A DNA stretch of 64,000 nt. Source: a virus. Taxonomy: Duplodnaviria; Heunggongvirae; Uroviricota; Caudoviricetes. Below, in pieces: positions 40,030 to 49,502 of this stretch. The notes under the pieces are model-generated. The model was not told the DNA's origin, did not search any database, and saw only the letters and a program-made list of their open reading frames with translations. The DNA lies in IMG/VR virus record IMGVR_UViG_2541047680_000004, one strand, 5' to 3'. The position numbers were made by a program, and so were the translations under genes. Position 1 is the first letter of the stretch. Each line of letters opens with the position of its first letter.

Positions 40030-40054
40030 AGCGCCCACTATGGGCGCTTTTTTC
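40030..40054 (+). terminator. rho-independent terminator
   Basis: stem GCGCCC/GGGCGC, loop ACTAT, then TTTTTT. Confidence 0.65.
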
Positions 40055-40075
40055 GTTTCCAATACTCCCACCAAA

Positions 40076-40101
40076 ACGCGCCAATGATGGCGCGTTTTTT
40101 A
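40076..40101 (+). terminator. second tandem terminator (bidirectional shape)
   Basis: stem ACGCGCCA/TGGCGCGT, loop ATGA, T-run after and A-run before. Confidence 0.6.
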
Positions 40102-40472
40102 TTGTCTTTAACTCACTCCAACAACATAAAAATAAGCGCCAAAATAACGCCATAGACGCGCTTTTATATCCTTACCAGTACATACCCATTACTTAACACA
40201 TTAACGCGCTTAAAACGCGTTATATTGCGCTATAGAGTATGGTTAATCATTGGCTTTTAGTCTTGCTTTATGATCCGCGTTTATTTGTCGGCGCGGATCG
40301 GCATTTTGTTTTGTTCCGTATCCGCTCGCGTATTATGTGCGCGTGATTTTTCACATAATCACACCACTTAATCACGTATGTGATTATGCTACGAAAGAAA
40401 TCTGGATGTCTCAGGCGACGAAAGTCATCATAATTTTCCCCGCTCACCTGTCCGACAACCGCTGGTTGGATT

Positions 40473-43294: not shown

Positions 43295-43329
43295 TAAACA
43301 ACATGTTTTCTTGATGGTGTTATTATCGC
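43295..43329. promoter_or_regulatory. family-1 operator/promoter element
   Basis: TAAACAACATGTTTTCTTGATGGTGTTATTATCGC. Confidence 0.5.
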
Positions 43330-43444
43330 AATAACGCACAGGCGAAAAAGGATTTTATTCCGGTGAATATGGTTTTGGCAGTGAGTTTTCAGGTTCAGTA
43401 CCGAGTATACTTTTTACATTATTCTGATTTAGTGGCCGAAGGTG

Positions 43445-43452
43445 GCTGGTGG
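43445..43452 (+). other. Chi sequence GCTGGTGG
   Basis: exact octamer about 200 bp from iteron cluster 2. Confidence 0.45.
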
Positions 43453-43644
43453 GCAGAATAATCCTCTCCCCGAAAACCTACTGAAATCGATTGTGACCCG
43501 TTGGCTGTCTGGCACAATTACGCTGTAGCTGGGCATTCAGAGGGAATCCAGCGGTAAGCAAGTCCGCCTACGTGAGCGCCTCTCTTCTTCCCGCACATTA
43601 CAGGTGGGTAGCCGCAACTCTCCCTCTCGCTATACCGGTACGCC

Positions 43645-43777
43645 GCCGTTCCTGAACCGGCATCGAGCCTTTTCCCGAAATCCACACAGGCAACTCGACC
43701 GTTTCCCTGAAAACCTCCAGCCGTTCCCCGAAGGCAACCCAGCCTTTTCTGTAGCGGGATGCAACCTTTTCCCTGTA
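43645..43777. repeat. iteron cluster 2 (six direct repeats, about 22-bp phasing)
   Basis: units at 43645, 43666, 43697, 43719, 43741, 43763 (e.g. GACCGTTTCCCTGAAAA); extra copy near 43470; same family as cluster 1. Confidence 0.65.
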
Positions 43778-44100
43778 TGGACCGAAGGCTGACCGTAGGG
43801 GTTTTACGGGGGATAAAATCAGGAGTTGAATAAATACGAAAAAGGAGGCGACACCCCTCCTTCCCTCCCCACTTATACATACCTGGCTTCTTCGCTATAC
43901 ATGTTGTGTTTTCTTCGTGTTTTATCTGTCTCAACCTCTCTATAGGCGTTAATGCTCACTCCTTCCAGAACCTTCTATACGGCGACTATTTCTGTTGGTG
44001 AATTGGGTGTGTTGTTCTCTCTGTCGGTGTATGTGGTTTCGTTCGTTTTGCGGTGGTTCTTCTATGGGGTGTTCTCGTCGTTTTGGTGATTGTTCTTCTC

Positions 44101-44460
44101 CGTGTATGGAGTAATGGCAGGTGGGCGATTCCTTTCGTTATTGTGTTTGAGTTGTTTGTCTGGAGTGTGTGAAAGGCTTTTGTAGTTATTCGTGTATTGG
44201 GTAATGGCGTTTCCCGTGATTGTTATGTTTCGTGTCTTTTGGGATTGAGAGAAACCTTGCGGTTACAGGCTTCGTTGGGGTTTCAGTGATTCTGGTGTTT
44301 CTTCGCTGTTTGGGTAATGGCGTGTCGTGGGTATCGCGCGTATGAATGTTTTCGGATTGCCTGTGAAAGTTAGGTTGGTTGTCCGGTAGCCTGGGGAGAA
44401 GAGGTGGGTCTTTTCGGTAGCCTGCCATAAAGAGGTTGGTTGTTTTGGGTAATGGTATAT
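44101..44460. repeat. direct repeats in GT-rich ORF-free region
   Basis: CGTGTAT(T)GG(A/G)GTAATGGC at 44101, 44191, 44304 and degenerate copy at 44437; strong G+T excess on plus strand across 43960-44700. Confidence 0.55.
44385..44455. repeat. about 70-bp G/T-rich repeat, copy B
   Basis: pairs with 41208-41280. Confidence 0.5.
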
Positions 44461-44701
44461 GTGTTATTTAGTTGTTTTGTTATGCCTGAAAATAAGTTGT
44501 TTATATGGTTGTGTAACGCAACGGGAGCGATTTTGAGCGTGTGTTTTTGTTGGTAGTGTGTTGAGTCGTCTGTGGTGAAAATTGGACGCTGTGGCGCTAT
44601 CTGCTGCGTAGAATTACGGGTATAAGAAGTGATGTGTGATAACGTCAATTTTTTAGACCAAATCGGGAGAAAGCGTTGATGTTTCGTTGATCTGTTATTT
44701 A

Positions 44702-44728
44702 GTTGTTTTCTTATTGGTATAAACAACC
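44702..44728. promoter_or_regulatory. family-1 half-site element
   Basis: GTTGTTTTCTTATTGGTATAAACAACC; would drive minus-strand transcription into the GT-rich region. Confidence 0.35.
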
Positions 44729-44845
44729 ATAACCTATTGATATTTAATGATGTGATTGCTGGTATGGGAGGGGAGTAGTGGCGATCAACGGGTTCTTATA
44801 GAAAAGAATCAAATTGTGACCGCCATTATCAATAAGTTGCAACCG

Positions 44846-45451
44846 TTAGTTGTTCAGATAAACATTTGGAACACGGACGTAGAACTTACTGTTACCGGTA
44901 AGTTCCAGAGTAATGTTAATGTCATTACCATTGTCTAGTGTAGCCGTCGCTCTATAGAACTTATCAGTTACCTTTTCGTCAATATTAACCTTGATGCATT
45001 TCGCCGCAGTAGAACCATTATGCTCTTTCAGAATAGTTGTCACGACAGGACATGCGGCTTCCTCAATGACGCCATCTTCCTGTTTCGGTATTACAATGAA
45101 GAATACGTAAGCCAGCAAGGTAACGACTATAATAAATGGCAGTCTACTGCTCTTTGTTATAGTCGCACGCTTCCATAGGTAGATTGGCATGAAAACTATT
45201 CCCCATAAAATAGCAGGTGGCTCATAGCCGGATTCCGAAATCGCCATTCTGTCAGCCACTAATAATCCGATGGCAGCTAAACTTCCAATTAATACAGCAT
45301 AATTTGCATACTCTTCGTTCGGAATGCCGAAGCAAATTGGAATAAAAGCTAAAATCCACGCATAAGTGTTATTCAAAGGTTTTTTTTGTTGGTTATTGGT
45401 TTCCATCACATCCATCTCATCACTTAAATTACTTGTATATATTATCAACAT
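44846..45451 (-). CDS. membrane protein (three or four N-terminal TM helices plus soluble C-terminal domain)
   Basis: hydrophobic segments WILAFIPICF, VLIGSLAAIGLLV, AILWGIVFMPIYL, FIIVVTLLAYVFFIV; AT-rich segment. Confidence 0.5.
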   Translation of the reverse strand: MLIIYTSNLSDEMDVMETNNQQKKPLNNTYAWILAFIPICFGIPNEEYANYAVLIGSLAAIGLLVADRMAISESGYEPPAILWGIVFMPIYLWKRATITKSSRLPFIIVVTLLAYVFFIVIPKQEDGVIEEAACPVVTTILKEHNGSTAAKCIKVNIDEKVTDKFYRATATLDNGNDINITLELTGNSKFYVRVPNVYLNN

Positions 45452-45527
45452 TTAACAAACATAACCTAAACACACAGCAGATATAGCATTACAAACTCAT
45501 TGTGAAAACCATTATCATAGGAAACGA

Positions 45528-45713
45528 TTAGATGAGATGGTCTAATTCATCATCTATCATGGCTTTGACGCTGGAGTCATTCACTCCATATTTATTTATG
45601 AGCTGTTTCAGCTCTGGCGAAAACTGAAGGTAGATATCGTGAGCGTTTTTCACTGTAGGTTCAACGCCACGCATTTCAAGCGCCTTTAGTAGATATGAGT
45701 CTTCTTTAAGCAT
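45528..45713 (-). CDS. hypothetical small protein
   Basis: 61-aa ORF. Confidence 0.3.
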   Translation of the reverse strand: MLKEDSYLLKALEMRGVEPTVKNAHDIYLQFSPELKQLINKYGVNDSSVKAMIDDELDHLI

Positions 45714-45749: not shown

Positions 45750-46049
45750 TTACCATTGCCAGCACTCAAGCCCTTCAACGACCGGTGCGCCACAATCAAA
45801 ATGTACAGAGTCAAAGCCTACATCAAGTACTTTCTGAATGTTCGCAATCGCGCCCTCGGATATACCATATCGACGCAACTCATCTATCCAGTCATCGTCC
45901 TGTAACCCGGCGTGGACAATGCAACCGTACTCAATTTGTGAAACCCAATCCAGCTCATTGCTTGCGATCATGAATCGGCGAGCATCTTCCTCTGATGTAT
46001 GAGATGAGCTGATCAATGCCACCTGGTAGGCTTGGGTAATGTTCAACAT
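45750..46049 (-). CDS. hypothetical protein
   Basis: ATG start at 46049 with RBS GGAGTGG; family-1 operator pair immediately upstream. Confidence 0.4.
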   Translation of the reverse strand: MLNITQAYQVALISSSHTSEEDARRFMIASNELDWVSQIEYGCIVHAGLQDDDWIDELRRYGISEGAIANIQKVLDVGFDSVHFDCGAPVVEGLECWQW

Positions 46050-46190: not shown

Positions 46191-46210
46191 TGCGAAGAGA
46201 GGTTGTTTAA

Positions 46211-48244
46211 TTACTTAACCTGGTGGCCAGGTTTAGCACCAGCATCCGGGCTTAACAGGAAGATATCTTTCCCGCCGGGGCCAGCAGCCATCACCATGCC
46301 TTCAGAGATACCGAAGCGCATTTTACGCGGAGCCAGGTTAGCCACCATAATTGTGTGACGACCAATCAGTGCCTGTGGGTCTGGATAAGCAGAACGGATG
46401 CCTGAGAAGACATTACGCTTTTCACCACCGAGATCCAGCGTCAGGCGCAGCAGCTTGTCAGAACCTTCAACAAACTCTGCGTTTTCAATCAGCGCCACGC
46501 GCAGGTCAACTTTAGCGAAGTCGTCAAAGGTGATGGTTTCCTGAATCGGGTCGTCTGCCAGTGGGCCAGTTACCGGTGCGGCTGTGGCTTTCACTTCTTC
46601 TTTGGATGCTTCCACCAGTGCTTCCACCTGTTTCATATCGATACGGTTATACAATGCCTTGAACGGATTCACTTTATGGCCCAGCAGCGGTTGCTGGATA
46701 CCATCCCAGGTCAGTTCTGTATTCAGGAATGCTTCTGCACGTTCAGTCAGTTTCGGCAGTACCGGTTTCAAGTAAGTCATCAGCACGCGGAACAGGTTAA
46801 TGCCCATAGAGCAAATCGCCTGCAGATCGGCATCGCGTCCTTCCTGCTTCGCCACCACCCACGGAGCCTGTTCATCAACATAGCGGTTAGCCAGGTCAGC
46901 CAGTGCCATGATTTCACGGATAGCTTTACCAAATTCGCGGCTTTCCCATGCTTCGCCAATCACTTCAGCGGCATCAGTAAAGGTTTTGTACAGTTGCGGG
47001 TCAGCCAGTTCGCTTGCCAGCACGCCGTCAAAACGCTTGTTGATAAAGCCTGCATTACGGGAGGCCAGGTTAACCACTTTGTTCACGATATCGGCATTCA
47101 CGCGCTGAACGAAATCCTCCAGGTTGAGATCGATATCATCAATGCGCGAAGAGAGTTTCGCAGTGTAGTAGTAACGCAGGCTGTCGGCGTCAAAATGATT
47201 CAGCCAGGTGCTGGCTTTAATAAAGGTACCGCGAGACTTAGACATCTTCGCGCCGTTCACCGTCACATAGCCATGAACAAACAGGTTGGTCGGCTTGCGG
47301 AAGTTGCTGCCTTCCAGCATTGCTGGCCAGAACAGACTGTGGAAGTAAACAATATCTTTACCGATGAAGTGGTACAGCTCGGCGGTGGAGTCTTTCTTCC
47401 AGTATTCATCGAAGCTTACGCTGTCGCCGCGCTTGTCGCACAGATTCTTGAAAGAACCCATATAGCCAATCGGCGCATCTAGCCAGACGTAGAAATATTT
47501 ACCCGGCGCGTTCGGAATTTCAAAACCGAAATACGGCGCGTCGCGGGAGATATCCCACTGTTGCAGGCCAGATTCAAACCACTCCTGCATTTTATTTGCC
47601 ACCTGCTCCTGCAACGCACCGCTGCGGGTCCATGCCTGCAACATTTCGCTGAAAGAGGGCAGATCAAAGAAGAAGTGTTCAGAATCACGCATTACCGGCG
47701 TAGCGCCAGAAACCACCGATTTCGGCTCGATCAATTCAGTCGGGCTGTAGGTCGCGCCGCAGACTTCGCAGTTATCGCCGTATTGATCCGGGGATTTACA
47801 TTTCGGGCAGGTGCCTTTCACAAAACGATCCGGCAGGAACATGCCTTTTTCCGGGTCGTACAACTGAGAGATAGTGCGATTTTTAATAAAACCGTTCTCT
47901 TTCAGGCGAGTATAGATAAGCTCAGACAACTGACGGTTCTCTTCGCTGTGCGTCGAGTGATAGTTGTCATAGCTGATGTTAAAGCCTGCGAAATCAGTCT
48001 GGTGTTCCTGACTCATTTCGCCAATCATCTGCTCCGGTGTGATACCAAGTTGCTGTGCTTTCAGCATGATCGGCGTACCGTGGGCATCGTCGGCACAGAT
48101 GAAATTAACCTCGTGGCCGCGCATTCGCTGGTAACGAACCCAGACATCAGCCTGGATGTGCTCCAGCATATGGCCGAGGTGGATTGAGCCGTTAGCGTAC
48201 GGCAGCGCGCACGTCACCAGAATTTTCTTCGCGACTTGGGTCAT
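46211..48244 (-). CDS. metG: methionine--tRNA ligase
   Basis: 677 aa from [25 protein letters not shown] (HIGH-type) with KMSKS; C-terminal tRNA-binding domain; near-identical to enterobacterial MetG as I recall it. Confidence 0.97.
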
Positions 48245-48401
48245 AGTAGGCATTACTTCTTTGTAGTGAAAAGGGGCTTGATAGTAACAAAATGGCCTTA
48301 TGTCTGCCATGTGATAACAGCATTTCTCATAAATGATTAAATGTCGCAGCTGGAGTACACTACAAGGCGACAATTGCGCAAATTAAAATAAAGGAGACGG
48401 G

Positions 48402-49502
48402 ATGAGCGAGTCCAAATCGCCGGATGCCCTGAGAGCAATGGTAGCCGGTACGCTGGCTAATTTTCAGCACCCAACCCTGAAACACAACCTGACTACGCTT
48501 AAAGCGTTACACCATGTTGCGTTGATGGATGACACACTGCATGTCGAACTAATCATGCCTTTCGTGTGGAATAAGCCTTTTGAAGACCTGAAAGAGCAAT
48601 GTAGTGGTGATCTGCTCCGTATCACTGGCGCAAAGGCTATTGACTGGAAGCTGTCGTACAACATTGCCACGCTTAAGCGCGTCAAAAACCAACCAGGCAT
48701 TAATGGTGTTAAGAATATTATCGCCGTAAGCTCAGGCAAGGGCGGTGTAGGCAAATCGTCCACAGCAGTAAACTTGGCACTGGCTTTGGCTGCTGAAGGT
48801 GCGAAAGTTGGTATTTTGGATGCCGATATCTATGGTCCATCAATTCCAACCATGCTGGGCGCGGAAAACCAACGTCCAACCTCACCGGACGGTACTCACA
48901 TGGCACCTATCATGTCTCATGGCCTGGCAACCAACTCTATTGGTTATCTGGTCACCGACGACAATGCAATGGTGTGGCGTGGACCGATGGCCAGCAAGGC
49001 GCTGATGCAGATGTTGCAGGAAACACTGTGGCCTGATCTGGACTATCTCGTTCTCGATATGCCGCCGGGCACTGGTGATATTCAATTGACGCTGGCGCAG
49101 AACATTCCTGTAACTGGTGCGGTTGTGGTAACTACGCCGCAAGACATCGCGCTGATCGATGCGAAGAAAGGCATTGTGATGTTCGAAAAAGTCGAAGTGC
49201 CGGTACTAGGTATCGTCGAAAACATGAGTGTGCATATTTGCAGTAACTGCGGTCATCACGAGCCAATTTTTGGCACCGGTGGCGCACAGAAACTGGCCGA
49301 GAAATACAACACGCAGTTGTTAGGCCAAATGCCACTTCATATCTCTCTTCGTGAAGATCTGGATAACGGAACACCAACCGTTATTAGTCGTCCAGATAGC
49401 GAATTTACGGCTATTTATCGTGACCTCGCAGATCGCGTTGCTGCCCAAATGTATTGGCAAGGTGAAGTAATACCTGGCGAAATCGCATTCCGCGCAGTGT
49501 GA
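48402..49502 (+). CDS. apbC: Fe-S cluster carrier ATPase Mrp/ApbC
   Basis: P-loop SSGKGGVGKS, CxxC motif (CSNCGH); divergent from metG as in E. coli. Confidence 0.95.
   Translation: MSESKSPDALRAMVAGTLANFQHPTLKHNLTTLKALHHVALMDDTLHVELIMPFVWNKPFEDLKEQCSGDLLRITGAKAIDWKLSYNIATLKRVKNQPGINGVKNIIAVSSGKGGVGKSSTAVNLALALAAEGAKVGILDADIYGPSIPTMLGAENQRPTSPDGTHMAPIMSHGLATNSIGYLVTDDNAMVWRGPMASKALMQMLQETLWPDLDYLVLDMPPGTGDIQLTLAQNIPVTGAVVVTTPQDIALIDAKKGIVMFEKVEVPVLGIVENMSVHICSNCGHHEPIFGTGGAQKLAEKYNTQLLGQMPLHISLREDLDNGTPTVISRPDSEFTAIYRDLADRVAAQMYWQGEVIPGEIAFRAV

What the first reader, a model, noticed from the sequence alone, without database searches (positions are those of the whole stretch)
44846..45713. 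AT-rich membrane-protein gene plus small partner next to the host junction
A polytopic membrane protein with a soluble C-terminal domain lies in a low-GC stretch just before the last phage gene abutting metG. This is a typical position and composition for a superinfection-exclusion or abortive-infection moron.
Basis: inference. Interest (0 to 1): 0.4.

Follow-up and report, generated by a model that had tools for sequence, protein, structure and literature searches.

The report
Swappable membrane gene in a phage-plasmid
The interval holds two real but uncharacterised accessory genes (a small inner-membrane protein and an unrelated 61-residue soluble protein) in a cargo slot of an SSU5-type phage-plasmid. 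The neighbouring metG is cargo of that plasmid, not the host chromosome, so there is no "host junction" and no evidence yet of an anti-phage role.

Summary
The sequence features are real. There is a 186-aa membrane protein (44846-45406, minus strand) and a 61-aa ORF (45528-45713). The interval's GC is 38.6%, in the lowest 2% of the window. The window is an SSU5-type phage-plasmid: all 243 E. coli matches lie on plasmids. metG-apbC is carried inside the element, is only about 90% identical to chromosomal copies, and phage-plasmid genes resume beyond it.

The two genes are not a pair. Among the 243 relatives about 67 have both, about 17 only the membrane gene, about 29 only the 61-aa gene, and about 130 neither.

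The membrane gene is a sharply bounded allele cassette: 67-77% identity inside a 94-100% identical backbone, with dN/dS of 0.1-0.2. It belongs to a large uncharacterised bacterial family that usually carries a cytoplasmic GYF_2 domain, which is missing here. Domain fusions indicate an N-in/C-out topology. The C-terminal domain is cystatin-like and predicted to be periplasmic.

There is no match to any known defence, holin or immunity family. An envelope-level conversion or exclusion role is my leading guess (about 0.35) and is untested. Ordinary, modest interest. A conserved 1.5-kb noncoding element next door is the stranger object.

The parts
44846..45406 (-). Accessory inner-membrane protein, 186 aa. 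Alternative upstream starts are at 45415 (M13) and 45451 (201 aa). Its parts are a short N-terminal tail, a membrane module with the invariant motif P-x-Y-L-W-K-R, and a C-terminal cystatin-like alpha/beta domain with two invariant Cys and an invariant LDNGN motif.
   Evidence: ORF. RefSeq start in L001. PHROG 12486, E = 3e-112. Homologues and alignment. AF2 model with pLDDT 83. dN/dS 0.09-0.23. Allele cassette.
45528..45713 (-). A 61-aa acidic soluble protein (11 D/E against 7 K/R), predicted to be a four-helix bundle. It is an orphan confined to E. coli SSU5-type phage-plasmids and occurs independently of the membrane gene.
45750..46049 (-). Context: DUF5983-family backbone gene, 99 aa counted from the ATG. 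In metG-less relatives it is the gene directly upstream of the membrane gene.
   Evidence: Pfam PF19419, E = 1e-12, and PHROG 5003. Synteny in L055, L011, L012 and L015. Only near relatives found.
46211..48244 (-). Context: the phage-plasmid-borne copy of metG. It is cargo, not the host chromosome.
   Evidence: Annotated in L001 and Cyrano. About 90% identical to chromosomal metG, 95-99% to phage-plasmid copies. Literature.
48402..49502 (+). Context: the phage-plasmid-borne copy of apbC (mrp), captured together with metG.
43305..44845 (-). Context: a conserved noncoding element of about 1.5 kb directly downstream of the membrane gene. It marks the downstream edge of the cargo slot. On the minus strand it has a CA-rich block (43960-44745), a hairpin followed by a T-run (43839-43865), and a G-rich block of GGGAAAMGG units (about 43545-43800).
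   Evidence: No gene annotated here in the RefSeq and PLSDB records. Present in 838 plasmids of six or more genera. Composition and noncoding tests. Repeats. Hairpin.

Best explanation
SHOWN. The interval carries two independent accessory genes of an SSU5-type phage-plasmid. They sit in a cargo slot between the backbone gene DUF5983 and a conserved 1.5-kb noncoding element. The larger product is an inner-membrane protein of a widespread, uncharacterised bacterial family. Its parts are a membrane module with the invariant motif P-x-YLWKR and a C-terminal helix-plus-four-strand (cystatin-like) domain with two invariant cysteines and an invariant LDNGN motif. The phage-plasmid version lacks the GYF_2 domain that most chromosomal relatives carry (GYF_2 is inferred to be cytoplasmic, see below).

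INFERRED, topology. The N-terminus is in the cytoplasm and the C-terminal domain is in the periplasm, which implies three membrane spans plus one interfacial helix.

INFERRED, function. This is my committed guess. The protein acts alone, as a membrane-anchored periplasmic binding domain that changes the envelope of the cell carrying the plasmid (lysogenic conversion). It most likely does so by occupying a conserved envelope or periplasmic component and so hindering entry of incoming phage DNA or of a periplasm-acting toxin. That is an exclusion or immunity type of action. The 61-aa protein is an unrelated small cytoplasmic protein of unknown role.

Confidence is about 0.9 for the anatomy and context and about 0.35 for the exclusion/conversion function.
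For: Element identity and cargo status:
- All 243 E. coli matches are on plasmids.
- metG-apbC is internal to the element.
- Among the 243 relatives, 84 carry the membrane gene, 96 carry the 61-aa gene and 113 carry either. L009 has a clean deletion of the membrane gene and L010 of the 61-aa gene.
- Backbone identity is 94-100%, but 67-77% inside 44950-45500.
- The same slot holds DUF262 plus type I restriction-modification in Klebsiella, a 396-aa protein in pHCM2, a GIY-YIG nuclease in a Salmonella relative (with two unannotated genes of the same sizes in Enterobacter), and a coiled-coil protein in Cyrano.

Real, constrained gene:
- dN/dS is 0.09-0.23.

Family:
- 40 homologues were found by the word-indexed search.
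- A profile search found 1279 cluster representatives at E of 1e-10 or better.
- Invariant residues are listed.

Topology:
- Relatives fuse a Ser/Thr kinase plus GYF_2, or zinc ribbons, to the N-terminal side of the membrane module.
- One relative has four Ltp repeats (PF07553, named a surface-exposed lipoprotein domain) directly after the last hydrophobic helix.
- The only solved relative of the GYF part is the GYF domain of GltJ. That this domain is cytoplasmic is my own knowledge.
- The loop KRATITKSSR carries +4 charge, while the other loops are acidic (read from the sequence).

Fold:
- AF2 pLDDT is 83, with a helix at 89-130 followed by four strands.
Against: - No match to any PADLOC defence model, NCBIfam model or informative Pfam family.
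- The structural neighbours among viral proteins are all uncharacterised.
- Chromosomal homologues, both with GYF_2 and the short form, are stand-alone genes in housekeeping surroundings, not in defence islands.
- The exposed C-terminal domain is the most conserved part: dN is 0.06-0.08 against 0.18-0.23 for the membrane part, and near-identical motifs are shared from E. coli to Pseudomonas. That is not what an arms race with phage proteins predicts.
- Expression in the plasmid-carrying state is unknown, and no promoter was found by the consensus scan.
- A published DefenseFinder screen found no defence system in the pWPMR2-like clade of SSU5 phage-plasmids. I assume, but did not verify, that this clade includes relatives of this window. 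That screen can only find known systems.
Confidence: 0.35

Rival explanations
1. The protein does for the host cell whatever the chromosomal family does. That would be an envelope-physiology role, for example anchoring or sensing through binding of a conserved periplasmic ligand. It is carried as ordinary fitness cargo, like metG, with no role in excluding phages or toxins.
For: - The family is large and mostly chromosomal.
- Homologues lie in housekeeping contexts.
- The periplasmic domain is under strong purifying selection and is conserved between E. coli plasmids and Pseudomonas chromosomes.
- The same region of these plasmids carries other host-physiology cargo: metG, apbC, ydfZ and an LprI-family lysozyme inhibitor.
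Against: - The plasmid copy lacks the cytoplasmic GYF_2, kinase or zinc-ribbon part that most relatives have. Any signalling across the membrane would therefore be lost.
- E. coli chromosomes have no detectable copy: 0 chromosomal places.
- The sharply bounded, anciently diverged allele cassettes and frequent loss are more typical of specificity or conflict genes.
Confidence: 0.3
2. The membrane protein and the 61-aa protein form a two-gene system, with a membrane effector and a small cytoplasmic partner, for example a toxin-antitoxin or abortive-infection pair.
For: They are adjacent, on the same strand and 76 nt apart. About 67 of the 243 related plasmids have both.
Against: - About 17 plasmids have the membrane gene only (for example L010) and about 29 have the 61-aa gene only (for example L009).
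- In metG-less relatives the membrane gene follows DUF5983 directly, with no 61-aa gene.
- The two genes have different histories. The 61-aa gene is 93-100% identical wherever it occurs, while the membrane gene is 73-81% identical in most plasmids.
- The 61-aa protein has no homologue outside E. coli phage-plasmids, whereas the membrane family is very wide.
- There is no PADLOC hit.
Confidence: 0.05
3. The membrane protein takes part in lysis timing, as a holin, antiholin or similar.
For: It is a small phage-borne protein with several hydrophobic helices. Three of 30 family members give faint hits to the T7-type holin Pfam model (best E = 0.078).
Against: - Those hits are far below significance.
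- No endolysin or spanin lies within about 9 kb on either side.
- The gene is absent from more than half of otherwise near-identical, presumably functional phage-plasmids, including the phage Cyrano.
- Chromosomal homologues are not in prophages.
Confidence: 0.04
4. The positional claim of the first reader: a moron inserted at the end of an integrated prophage, next to the chromosomal metG.
For: metG and apbC look like host genes, and GC rises from about 39% to about 52% across the boundary.
Against: - There are no chromosomal matches for the flank.
- The same metG-apbC segment is embedded in more than 200 circular plasmids and in phage Cyrano, with phage-plasmid genes on both sides.
- The segment is only about 90% identical to E. 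coli chromosomes.
- metG-less relatives carry the membrane gene at the same backbone position.
Confidence: 0.01

Closest known systems
Bacterial 'DUF4339/GYF_2 domain-containing' membrane proteins (for example the Pseudomonas huaxiensis protein P0030, and P0050). The family is uncharacterised.
   Same: Homologous membrane module and C-terminal domain, at 30-40% identity over more than 90% of the query. They share the invariant D52, P74-x-YLWKR80, C119, C137 and L157-D-N-G-N161.
   Different: The phage-plasmid protein lacks the N-terminal GYF_2 domain and its PPPL linker. It is plasmid- and phage-borne rather than chromosomal. No member of the family has a known function.
Membrane-anchored periplasmic domains of cystatin/NTF2-like fold: colicin M immunity protein Cmi (2xgl), and DotI, VirB8 and TraM of type IV secretion systems.
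Phage superinfection-exclusion membrane proteins: Ltp of Streptococcus phage TP-J34, T4 Imm/Sp, P22 SieA and HK97 gp15 (recalled from my own knowledge, not tested here).
   Same: A small, accessory, phage-encoded envelope protein with an extracytoplasmic part. One distant relative of the membrane module (P0179) carries four Ltp-type repeats (PF07553) in place of the C-terminal domain.
   Different: This protein itself has no Ltp domain and no sequence or profile match to any of them. No phenotype is known.
T7 Gp5.9 RecBCD inhibitor (PF25708), as a candidate identity for the 61-aa protein.
   Same: Small and acidic. There is a faint Pfam hit at E = 0.0057 over residues 2-18.

Membership tests
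Prophage-chromosome junction (integrated prophage end) | The flanking DNA is host chromosome, and the element ends there | tested here: not met
   There are 0 chromosomal and 251 plasmid places for the flank. Phage-plasmid genes continue beyond metG-apbC. The metG-apbC segment is about 90% identical to chromosomes and 95-99% to phage-plasmids.
Known anti-phage defence, abortive-infection or exclusion protein families (PADLOC-DB v2) | Significant match to a defence-system HMM | tested here: not met
   No family at E of 1 or better for the 201-aa ORF, the 61-aa ORF or the DUF5983 ORF.
Known anti-phage defence, abortive-infection or exclusion protein families | Reduced plating or DNA entry of challenging phages when the gene is expressed | not testable with these tools
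   Needs a phage challenge experiment.
GYF_2/DUF4339 membrane-protein family | Homologous membrane module with the P-x-YLWKR motif, plus a C-terminal Cys...Cys...LDNGN domain | tested here: met
   E = 1e-17 to 1e-28 to GYF_2-bearing proteins at 91-97% query coverage. Invariant columns. Profile search.
GYF_2/DUF4339 membrane-protein family | N-terminal GYF_2 (PF14237) domain | tested here: not met
   Absent from the window protein and from all 10 phage-plasmid-type and short alleles aligned. Present in 18 of 30 aligned members.
Colicin M immunity (Cmi)-like or cystatin-like periplasmic domains | Significant fold match and sequence relationship | tested here: inconclusive
Ltp-type exclusion lipoproteins (PF07553) | Ltp repeat domain | tested here: not met
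   Not found in the window protein. Present only in the distant relative P0179.
Holins | Match to a holin family and adjacency to an endolysin or spanin | tested here: not met
   Best E is 0.078, in 3 of 30 relatives. No lysis gene lies in the annotated 21-kb neighbourhood.
T7 Gp5.9 (for the 61-aa protein) | Pfam score at or above the gathering threshold, and a matching fold | tested here: not met
Two-gene toxin-antitoxin or Abi operon | Obligate co-occurrence of the two genes | tested here: not met
   Of 243 relatives, 84 carry the membrane gene, 96 the 61-aa gene and 113 either. Single-gene plasmids are L009 and L010.
CsrB/RsmZ-type sponge RNAs or any Rfam family (for the neighbouring noncoding element) | Covariance-model match | tested here: not met
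   No Csr or Rsm hit even at E of 10 or better. The only hit inside the element is a chance-level DUF3800-VIII match; the chance-level Hrs1 match lies outside it, at 40037-40103.

The most novel reading that the evidence does not exclude
The membrane protein is the founding member of a new class of phage-plasmid exclusion or immunity determinants. In this reading a conserved three-span membrane module, shared with hundreds of chromosomal GYF_2 proteins, displays a cystatin-like periplasmic domain that blocks an envelope step used by incoming phages or toxins. The anciently diverged allele cassettes would represent different specificities. The gene might also work together with the conserved 1.5-kb CA-rich/G-rich noncoding element that always borders the cargo slot.
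Probability: 0.15. Interest if true: 0.55.

Novelty: new member of a known kind. Interest (0 to 1): 0.3.

Why it matters
SSU5-type phage-plasmids are common in clinical E. coli, Shigella sonnei, Salmonella Typhi and Klebsiella. Their metG cargo has already been linked to antimicrobial survival.

Three things are useful for annotation and for anyone dissecting these elements. First, metG is internal cargo, not a chromosome junction. Second, the slot just downstream of DUF5983 is a swap-in/swap-out site. Third, one of its recurrent occupants is a constrained envelope protein from a large family with no known function.

If the protein proved to be an exclusion or immunity factor, it would give a first functional handle on more than a thousand uncharacterised homologue clusters. 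As it stands, it is an ordinary hypothetical accessory gene.

Tried and rejected
- Pfam, PHROGs, PADLOC and NCBIfam scans of the three ORFs and their neighbours gave only unknown-function PHROGs, DUF5983 and sub-threshold noise such as bPH_7, Tmemb_185A, Gp5.9 and MvaT.
- The Foldseek search of BFVD gave only uncharacterised phage proteins.
- The profile search against PDB sequences matched only the GYF part, to GltJ.
- The literature search for DUF4339/GYF_2 found no bacterial functional study.
- The 61-aa protein has no distant homologues and no fold match, so I rejected the Gp5.9 lead.
- I tested whether the 116-aa gene after a chromosomal homologue (L052) matches the 116-aa gene after the noncoding element here. 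There is no similarity.
- The DUF5983 search returned only near relatives.
- For the neighbouring noncoding element, Rfam found nothing.
- Its minimum-free-energy z-score is +1.1 on the minus strand and -0.35 on the plus strand, so it is no more stable than shuffled sequence.
- RNAalifold on 12 lineages gave a covariation term of +1.03, so a fixed fold has no support.
- It contains no tandem repeats and no DnaA boxes.
- A literature search for pHCM2 small RNAs was uninformative.

Full report
WHAT THE WINDOW IS

The 2.9 kb from 43300 to the metG stop codon matches 243 of 5426 complete E. coli genomes. There are 251 places on plasmids of about 100-115 kb and none on a chromosome. It also matches the phage-plasmids Escherichia phage Cyrano and CMS-2020a, and part of it matches Salmonella phage SSU5. 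The best match is 98.6% identical (plasmid p2 of isolate NRZ96606).

In that record and in Cyrano, metG and apbC are annotated inside the element. Beyond them come humD, ead/Ea22-like, DUF4942 and other phage-plasmid genes. Homology to E. coli chromosomes covers only window 46210-49498, essentially the two coding sequences plus the spacer between them. It is about 90% identical to all 5426 chromosomes, against 95-99% to 214 phage-plasmids.

Phage-plasmid-borne metG is already described in the literature (Tam et al. 2024, medRxiv 10.1101/2024.10.27.24316207, as cited in PMC12452169). So the 'host junction' in the finding does not exist.

THE OBSERVATION ITSELF

The ORFs are there.

- The long ORF is 201 codons from the first ATG. 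RefSeq annotators and the alignment of homologues favour M16, giving 186 aa at 44846-45406.
- It has hydrophobic helices at residues 14-26, 31-58, 66-84 and 89 to about 108 in 186-aa numbering, followed by a soluble domain.
- The 61-aa ORF has a GGAG ribosome-binding site at the right distance.
- The interval's GC is 38.6%, the 1.9th percentile of equal-sized windows in this 64-kb window. 'AT-rich' is correct.
- The membrane gene is a real gene. It matches PHROG 12486 at E = 3e-112, and eight alleles give dN/dS of 0.09-0.23 with dS up to more than 1. The 61-aa ORF matches PHROG 11467 at E = 1.5e-43.

NOT A PAIR

Among the 243 related E. coli plasmids:

| Content | Count |
|---|---|
| Membrane gene present | 84 (76 over at least 80% of its length) |
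| 61-aa gene present | 96 |
| Either gene | 113 |
| Both (by subtraction) | about 67 |
| Membrane gene only | about 17 |
| 61-aa gene only | about 29 |
| Neither | about 130 |

L010 lacks exactly the 61-aa gene, and L009 lacks exactly the membrane gene. In metG-less SSU5-type elements the membrane gene directly follows the DUF5983 gene, with no 61-aa gene. These elements are Salmonella Tennessee pCFSAN076210, E. coli pEC21Z137-115K, the ET650 plasmid and a metagenomic contig.

The 61-aa gene is 93-100% identical wherever it occurs. The membrane gene is 73-81% identical in most plasmids. The two genes therefore have separate histories.

A CARGO SLOT AND AN ALLELE CASSETTE

A 100-nt identity scan against L013 and L014 shows 94-100% identity on both sides, but 67-77% inside 44950-45500. 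This is a sharply bounded replacement by an anciently diverged allele. Recombination points lie inside the gene: L014 against L015 has dS of 0.012 in the membrane part and 0.67 in the C-terminal part.

The position between DUF5983 and a conserved 1.5-kb noncoding element holds different genes in different lineages:

- a 244-aa coiled-coil protein in Cyrano;
- a GIY-YIG nuclease plus a hypothetical gene downstream of the membrane gene in the Salmonella relative;
- two unannotated genes of the same sizes, with no membrane gene, in Enterobacter;
- a 396-aa protein in S. Typhi pHCM2;
- DUF262 plus a type I restriction-modification system in Klebsiella pRJA166c.

WHAT THE MEMBRANE PROTEIN IS

The word-indexed search found 40 homologues. 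They fall into three groups:

- phage-plasmid alleles at 55-99% identity, from E. coli, Citrobacter and Salmonella;
- short homologues at 42-48% identity;
- proteins of about 240 aa at 30-40% identity, from Pseudomonas, Azoarcus and metagenomes, which add an N-terminal GYF_2 (PF14237/DUF4339) domain.

The invariant residues are D52, G60, P64, P74, Y76-L-W-K-R80, C119, V122, C137, V140, Y151, A153, A155, L157, N159-G160, T166 and V177.

A profile search of 1.84 billion cluster representatives found 4742 hits at E of 1e-3 or better, 1279 at 1e-10 and 196 at 1e-30. Many of these share only the GYF_2 and membrane-module part, or only the module and C-terminal-domain part.

Chromosomal members are stand-alone genes among housekeeping genes. 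Examples of neighbours are UvrD, MltA and OTCase, or TonB receptor, FecR and sigma factor, or PagP and RND efflux.

No Pfam, NCBIfam or PADLOC model covers the module or the C-terminal domain.

STRUCTURE AND TOPOLOGY

AlphaFold2 with the 30-sequence alignment gives pLDDT 83. It predicts helices at 14-26, 31-58, 66-71, 73-84 and 89-130, then strands at 137-145, 150-157, 162-170 and 174-178. The C-terminal domain is thus a helix packed on a four-stranded sheet.

The topology is inferred from four observations.

1. Relatives carry a Ser/Thr kinase plus GYF_2 (P0108), or zinc ribbons (P0139, P0179), on the N-terminal side. P0179 has four Ltp repeats (PF07553, named a surface-exposed lipoprotein domain) directly after the last hydrophobic helix.
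2. The only solved relative of the GYF part is the GYF domain of GltJ. That this domain is cytoplasmic is my own knowledge.
3. The loop KRATITKSSR before the last helix carries +4 charge, while the other loops are acidic (read from the sequence).
4. The C-terminal domain has two invariant cysteines.

Together these give an N-in/C-out orientation, meaning three spans plus one interfacial or re-entrant helix (residues 64-84).

FUNCTION

Nothing links the protein to a known mechanism.

In favour of an exclusion, immunity or conversion role:
- accessory status and slot company (restriction-modification and DUF262 in Klebsiella);
- the architecture of a small inner-membrane protein displaying a periplasmic domain;
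- replacement of that domain by Ltp repeats in one relative;
- the cassette-like allelic diversity.

Against such a role:
- the exposed domain is the most conserved part, with dN of 0.06-0.08 against 0.18-0.23 for the membrane part, and with near-identical motifs from E. coli to Pseudomonas;
- chromosomal homologues are not in defence islands;
- no defence HMM matches;
- expression in the plasmid state is unknown.

I commit to 'membrane-anchored periplasmic binder acting at the envelope of the carrier cell, most likely hindering entry of phage DNA or a toxin' at about 0.35. 'Ordinary envelope-physiology cargo' follows at about 0.30. The pair/TA, holin and junction-moron ideas are each at 0.05 or less.

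THE 61-AA PROTEIN

SIDE OBSERVATION: THE NEIGHBOURING NONCODING ELEMENT (PARTLY FOLLOWED UP)

The 1.5 kb directly downstream of the membrane gene (43305-44845) has no annotated gene in the RefSeq and PLSDB records. It is nevertheless conserved over most of its length, at 66-75% identity across genera. It occurs in 838 plasmids of Klebsiella, Escherichia, Enterobacter, Salmonella (including pHCM2), Citrobacter and Cronobacter.

On the minus strand, 44745 to 43960 is 70% A+C with a C/G ratio of 2.35. It is the most strand-skewed 800 nt of the window (robust z of 9.5). The skew is kept in all lineages, with C/G of 1.7-2.4. Substitutions show no period-3 pattern, and most indels are not multiples of three, so it is not coding. 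The ORFs annotated there in Cyrano are probably artefacts of the T/G-poor composition.

The element contains conserved direct repeats: a 16-mer, GCCATTACYCAAWACA, in four copies, and a 25-mer in two copies. They are 90-100% conserved between genera, against a background of about 67% identity.

After the CA-rich block comes a hairpin followed by a T-run (43865-43839). Then comes a G-rich block made of 7-9 units of the type (C/U)(A/G)GGGAAA(A/C)GG. Whole units are gained or lost between lineages.

No Rfam family matches. The fold is no more stable than shuffled sequence. There is no covariation support for a fixed fold. There are no DnaA boxes.

Candidate explanations, all untested:
- a long CA-rich RNA or Rho-loading (rut-like) insulator between the cargo slot and the downstream conserved small-gene operon;
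- an RNA-binding-protein sponge, since the GGA-rich units are CsrA-like and the CA/ARN-rich block is Hfq-like;
- a DNA-level protein-binding array.

This element is more unusual than the finding itself.

VERDICT

The genes, the membrane topology and the low GC are right. The junction and the partner relationship are wrong. The object is a new member of a known kind (phage accessory membrane protein) from an uncharacterised family. Interest is modest.

Noticed in passing
window 43305-44845 (minus strand): A noncoding element of about 1.5 kb, conserved across the whole SSU5 supergroup: 838 plasmids in six or more genera, at 66-75% identity between genera. On the minus strand it has an 800-nt CA-rich block (A+C 70%, C/G 2.35), which is the most strand-skewed stretch of the window. 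This is followed by a hairpin with a T-run (43865-43839) and then a G-rich block of 7-9 GGGAAAMGG units that are gained or lost between lineages. It is not coding, matches no Rfam family, shows no covariation for a fixed fold and has no DnaA box. Its function is unknown; a long ncRNA or Rho-loading insulator, an RNA-binding-protein sponge, or a DNA-binding array are all possible.
   Followed up: partly
window 44103-44118, 44193-44208, 44306-44321, 44441-44456 (minus strand); also 44459-44483 and 44690-44714: Four same-strand copies of a 16-mer, GCCATTACYCAAWACA, spaced 90-135 nt apart, and two copies of a 25-mer, ATAAsAAAACAACTAAATAACAsAT. The four-copy cluster occurs only here in the window. 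The repeats are 90-100% conserved between E. coli, Salmonella, Enterobacter and Klebsiella elements, against a background of about 67% identity. They look like binding sites, either protein on DNA or a factor on RNA.
   Followed up: partly
window 46210-49498: The phage-plasmid copy of metG-apbC is only about 90% identical to every E. coli chromosome. Chromosomal homology stops at the stop codon of metG and within a few bases of the stop codon of apbC. The capture is therefore old, or came from another enterobacterial species, and was trimmed to the coding sequences. metG on such phage-plasmids has been linked to antimicrobial survival in Shigella sonnei.
   Followed up: partly
L016 4852-7512 (Klebsiella pRJA166c); L018 4284-5474 (pHCM2); L017 4264-5702; L002 7540-8274 (Cyrano): The slot upstream of the noncoding element is a cargo hotspot across the SSU5 supergroup. 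It holds DUF262 plus a type I restriction-modification system in Klebsiella, a 396-aa hypothetical protein in pHCM2, two hypothetical genes in Enterobacter whose sizes match the GIY-YIG nuclease and hypothetical gene of a Salmonella relative (L011), and a coiled-coil protein in Cyrano.
   Followed up: partly
L002 6179-6583 and 7073-7429 (Cyrano CYRAN_104 and CYRAN_103); window ORFs 44370-44726 and 44186-44428 (minus strand): ORFs annotated or listed inside the CA-rich block are probably artefacts of a T/G-poor strand, which has few stop codons. Substitutions show no period-3 pattern, indels are not in multiples of three, and PGAP leaves the region unannotated.
   Followed up: partly
window 43445-43452 (plus strand): A Chi site (GCTGGTGG) lies inside a block (CTGCCCACCAGCC on the minus strand) that is conserved in the window and 4 of the 6 other loci aligned (5 of 7 sequences). 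Its significance was not examined.
   Followed up: no
window 40037-40103 (minus strand): A weak, sub-threshold Rfam match to the Hfq-regulated sRNA Hrs1: 29.4 bits against a gathering score of 56.4, E = 0.013. Probably chance.
   Followed up: no
P0108, P0179, P0139 (distant relatives of the membrane module): The same membrane module is fused in other bacteria to a Ser/Thr kinase plus GYF_2 plus TPR, to a zinc ribbon plus GYF_2 plus four Ltp repeats, or to a double zinc ribbon. This suggests a general 'cytoplasmic adaptor, membrane module, extracytoplasmic domain' design for a large family that has no Pfam model.
   Followed up: partly
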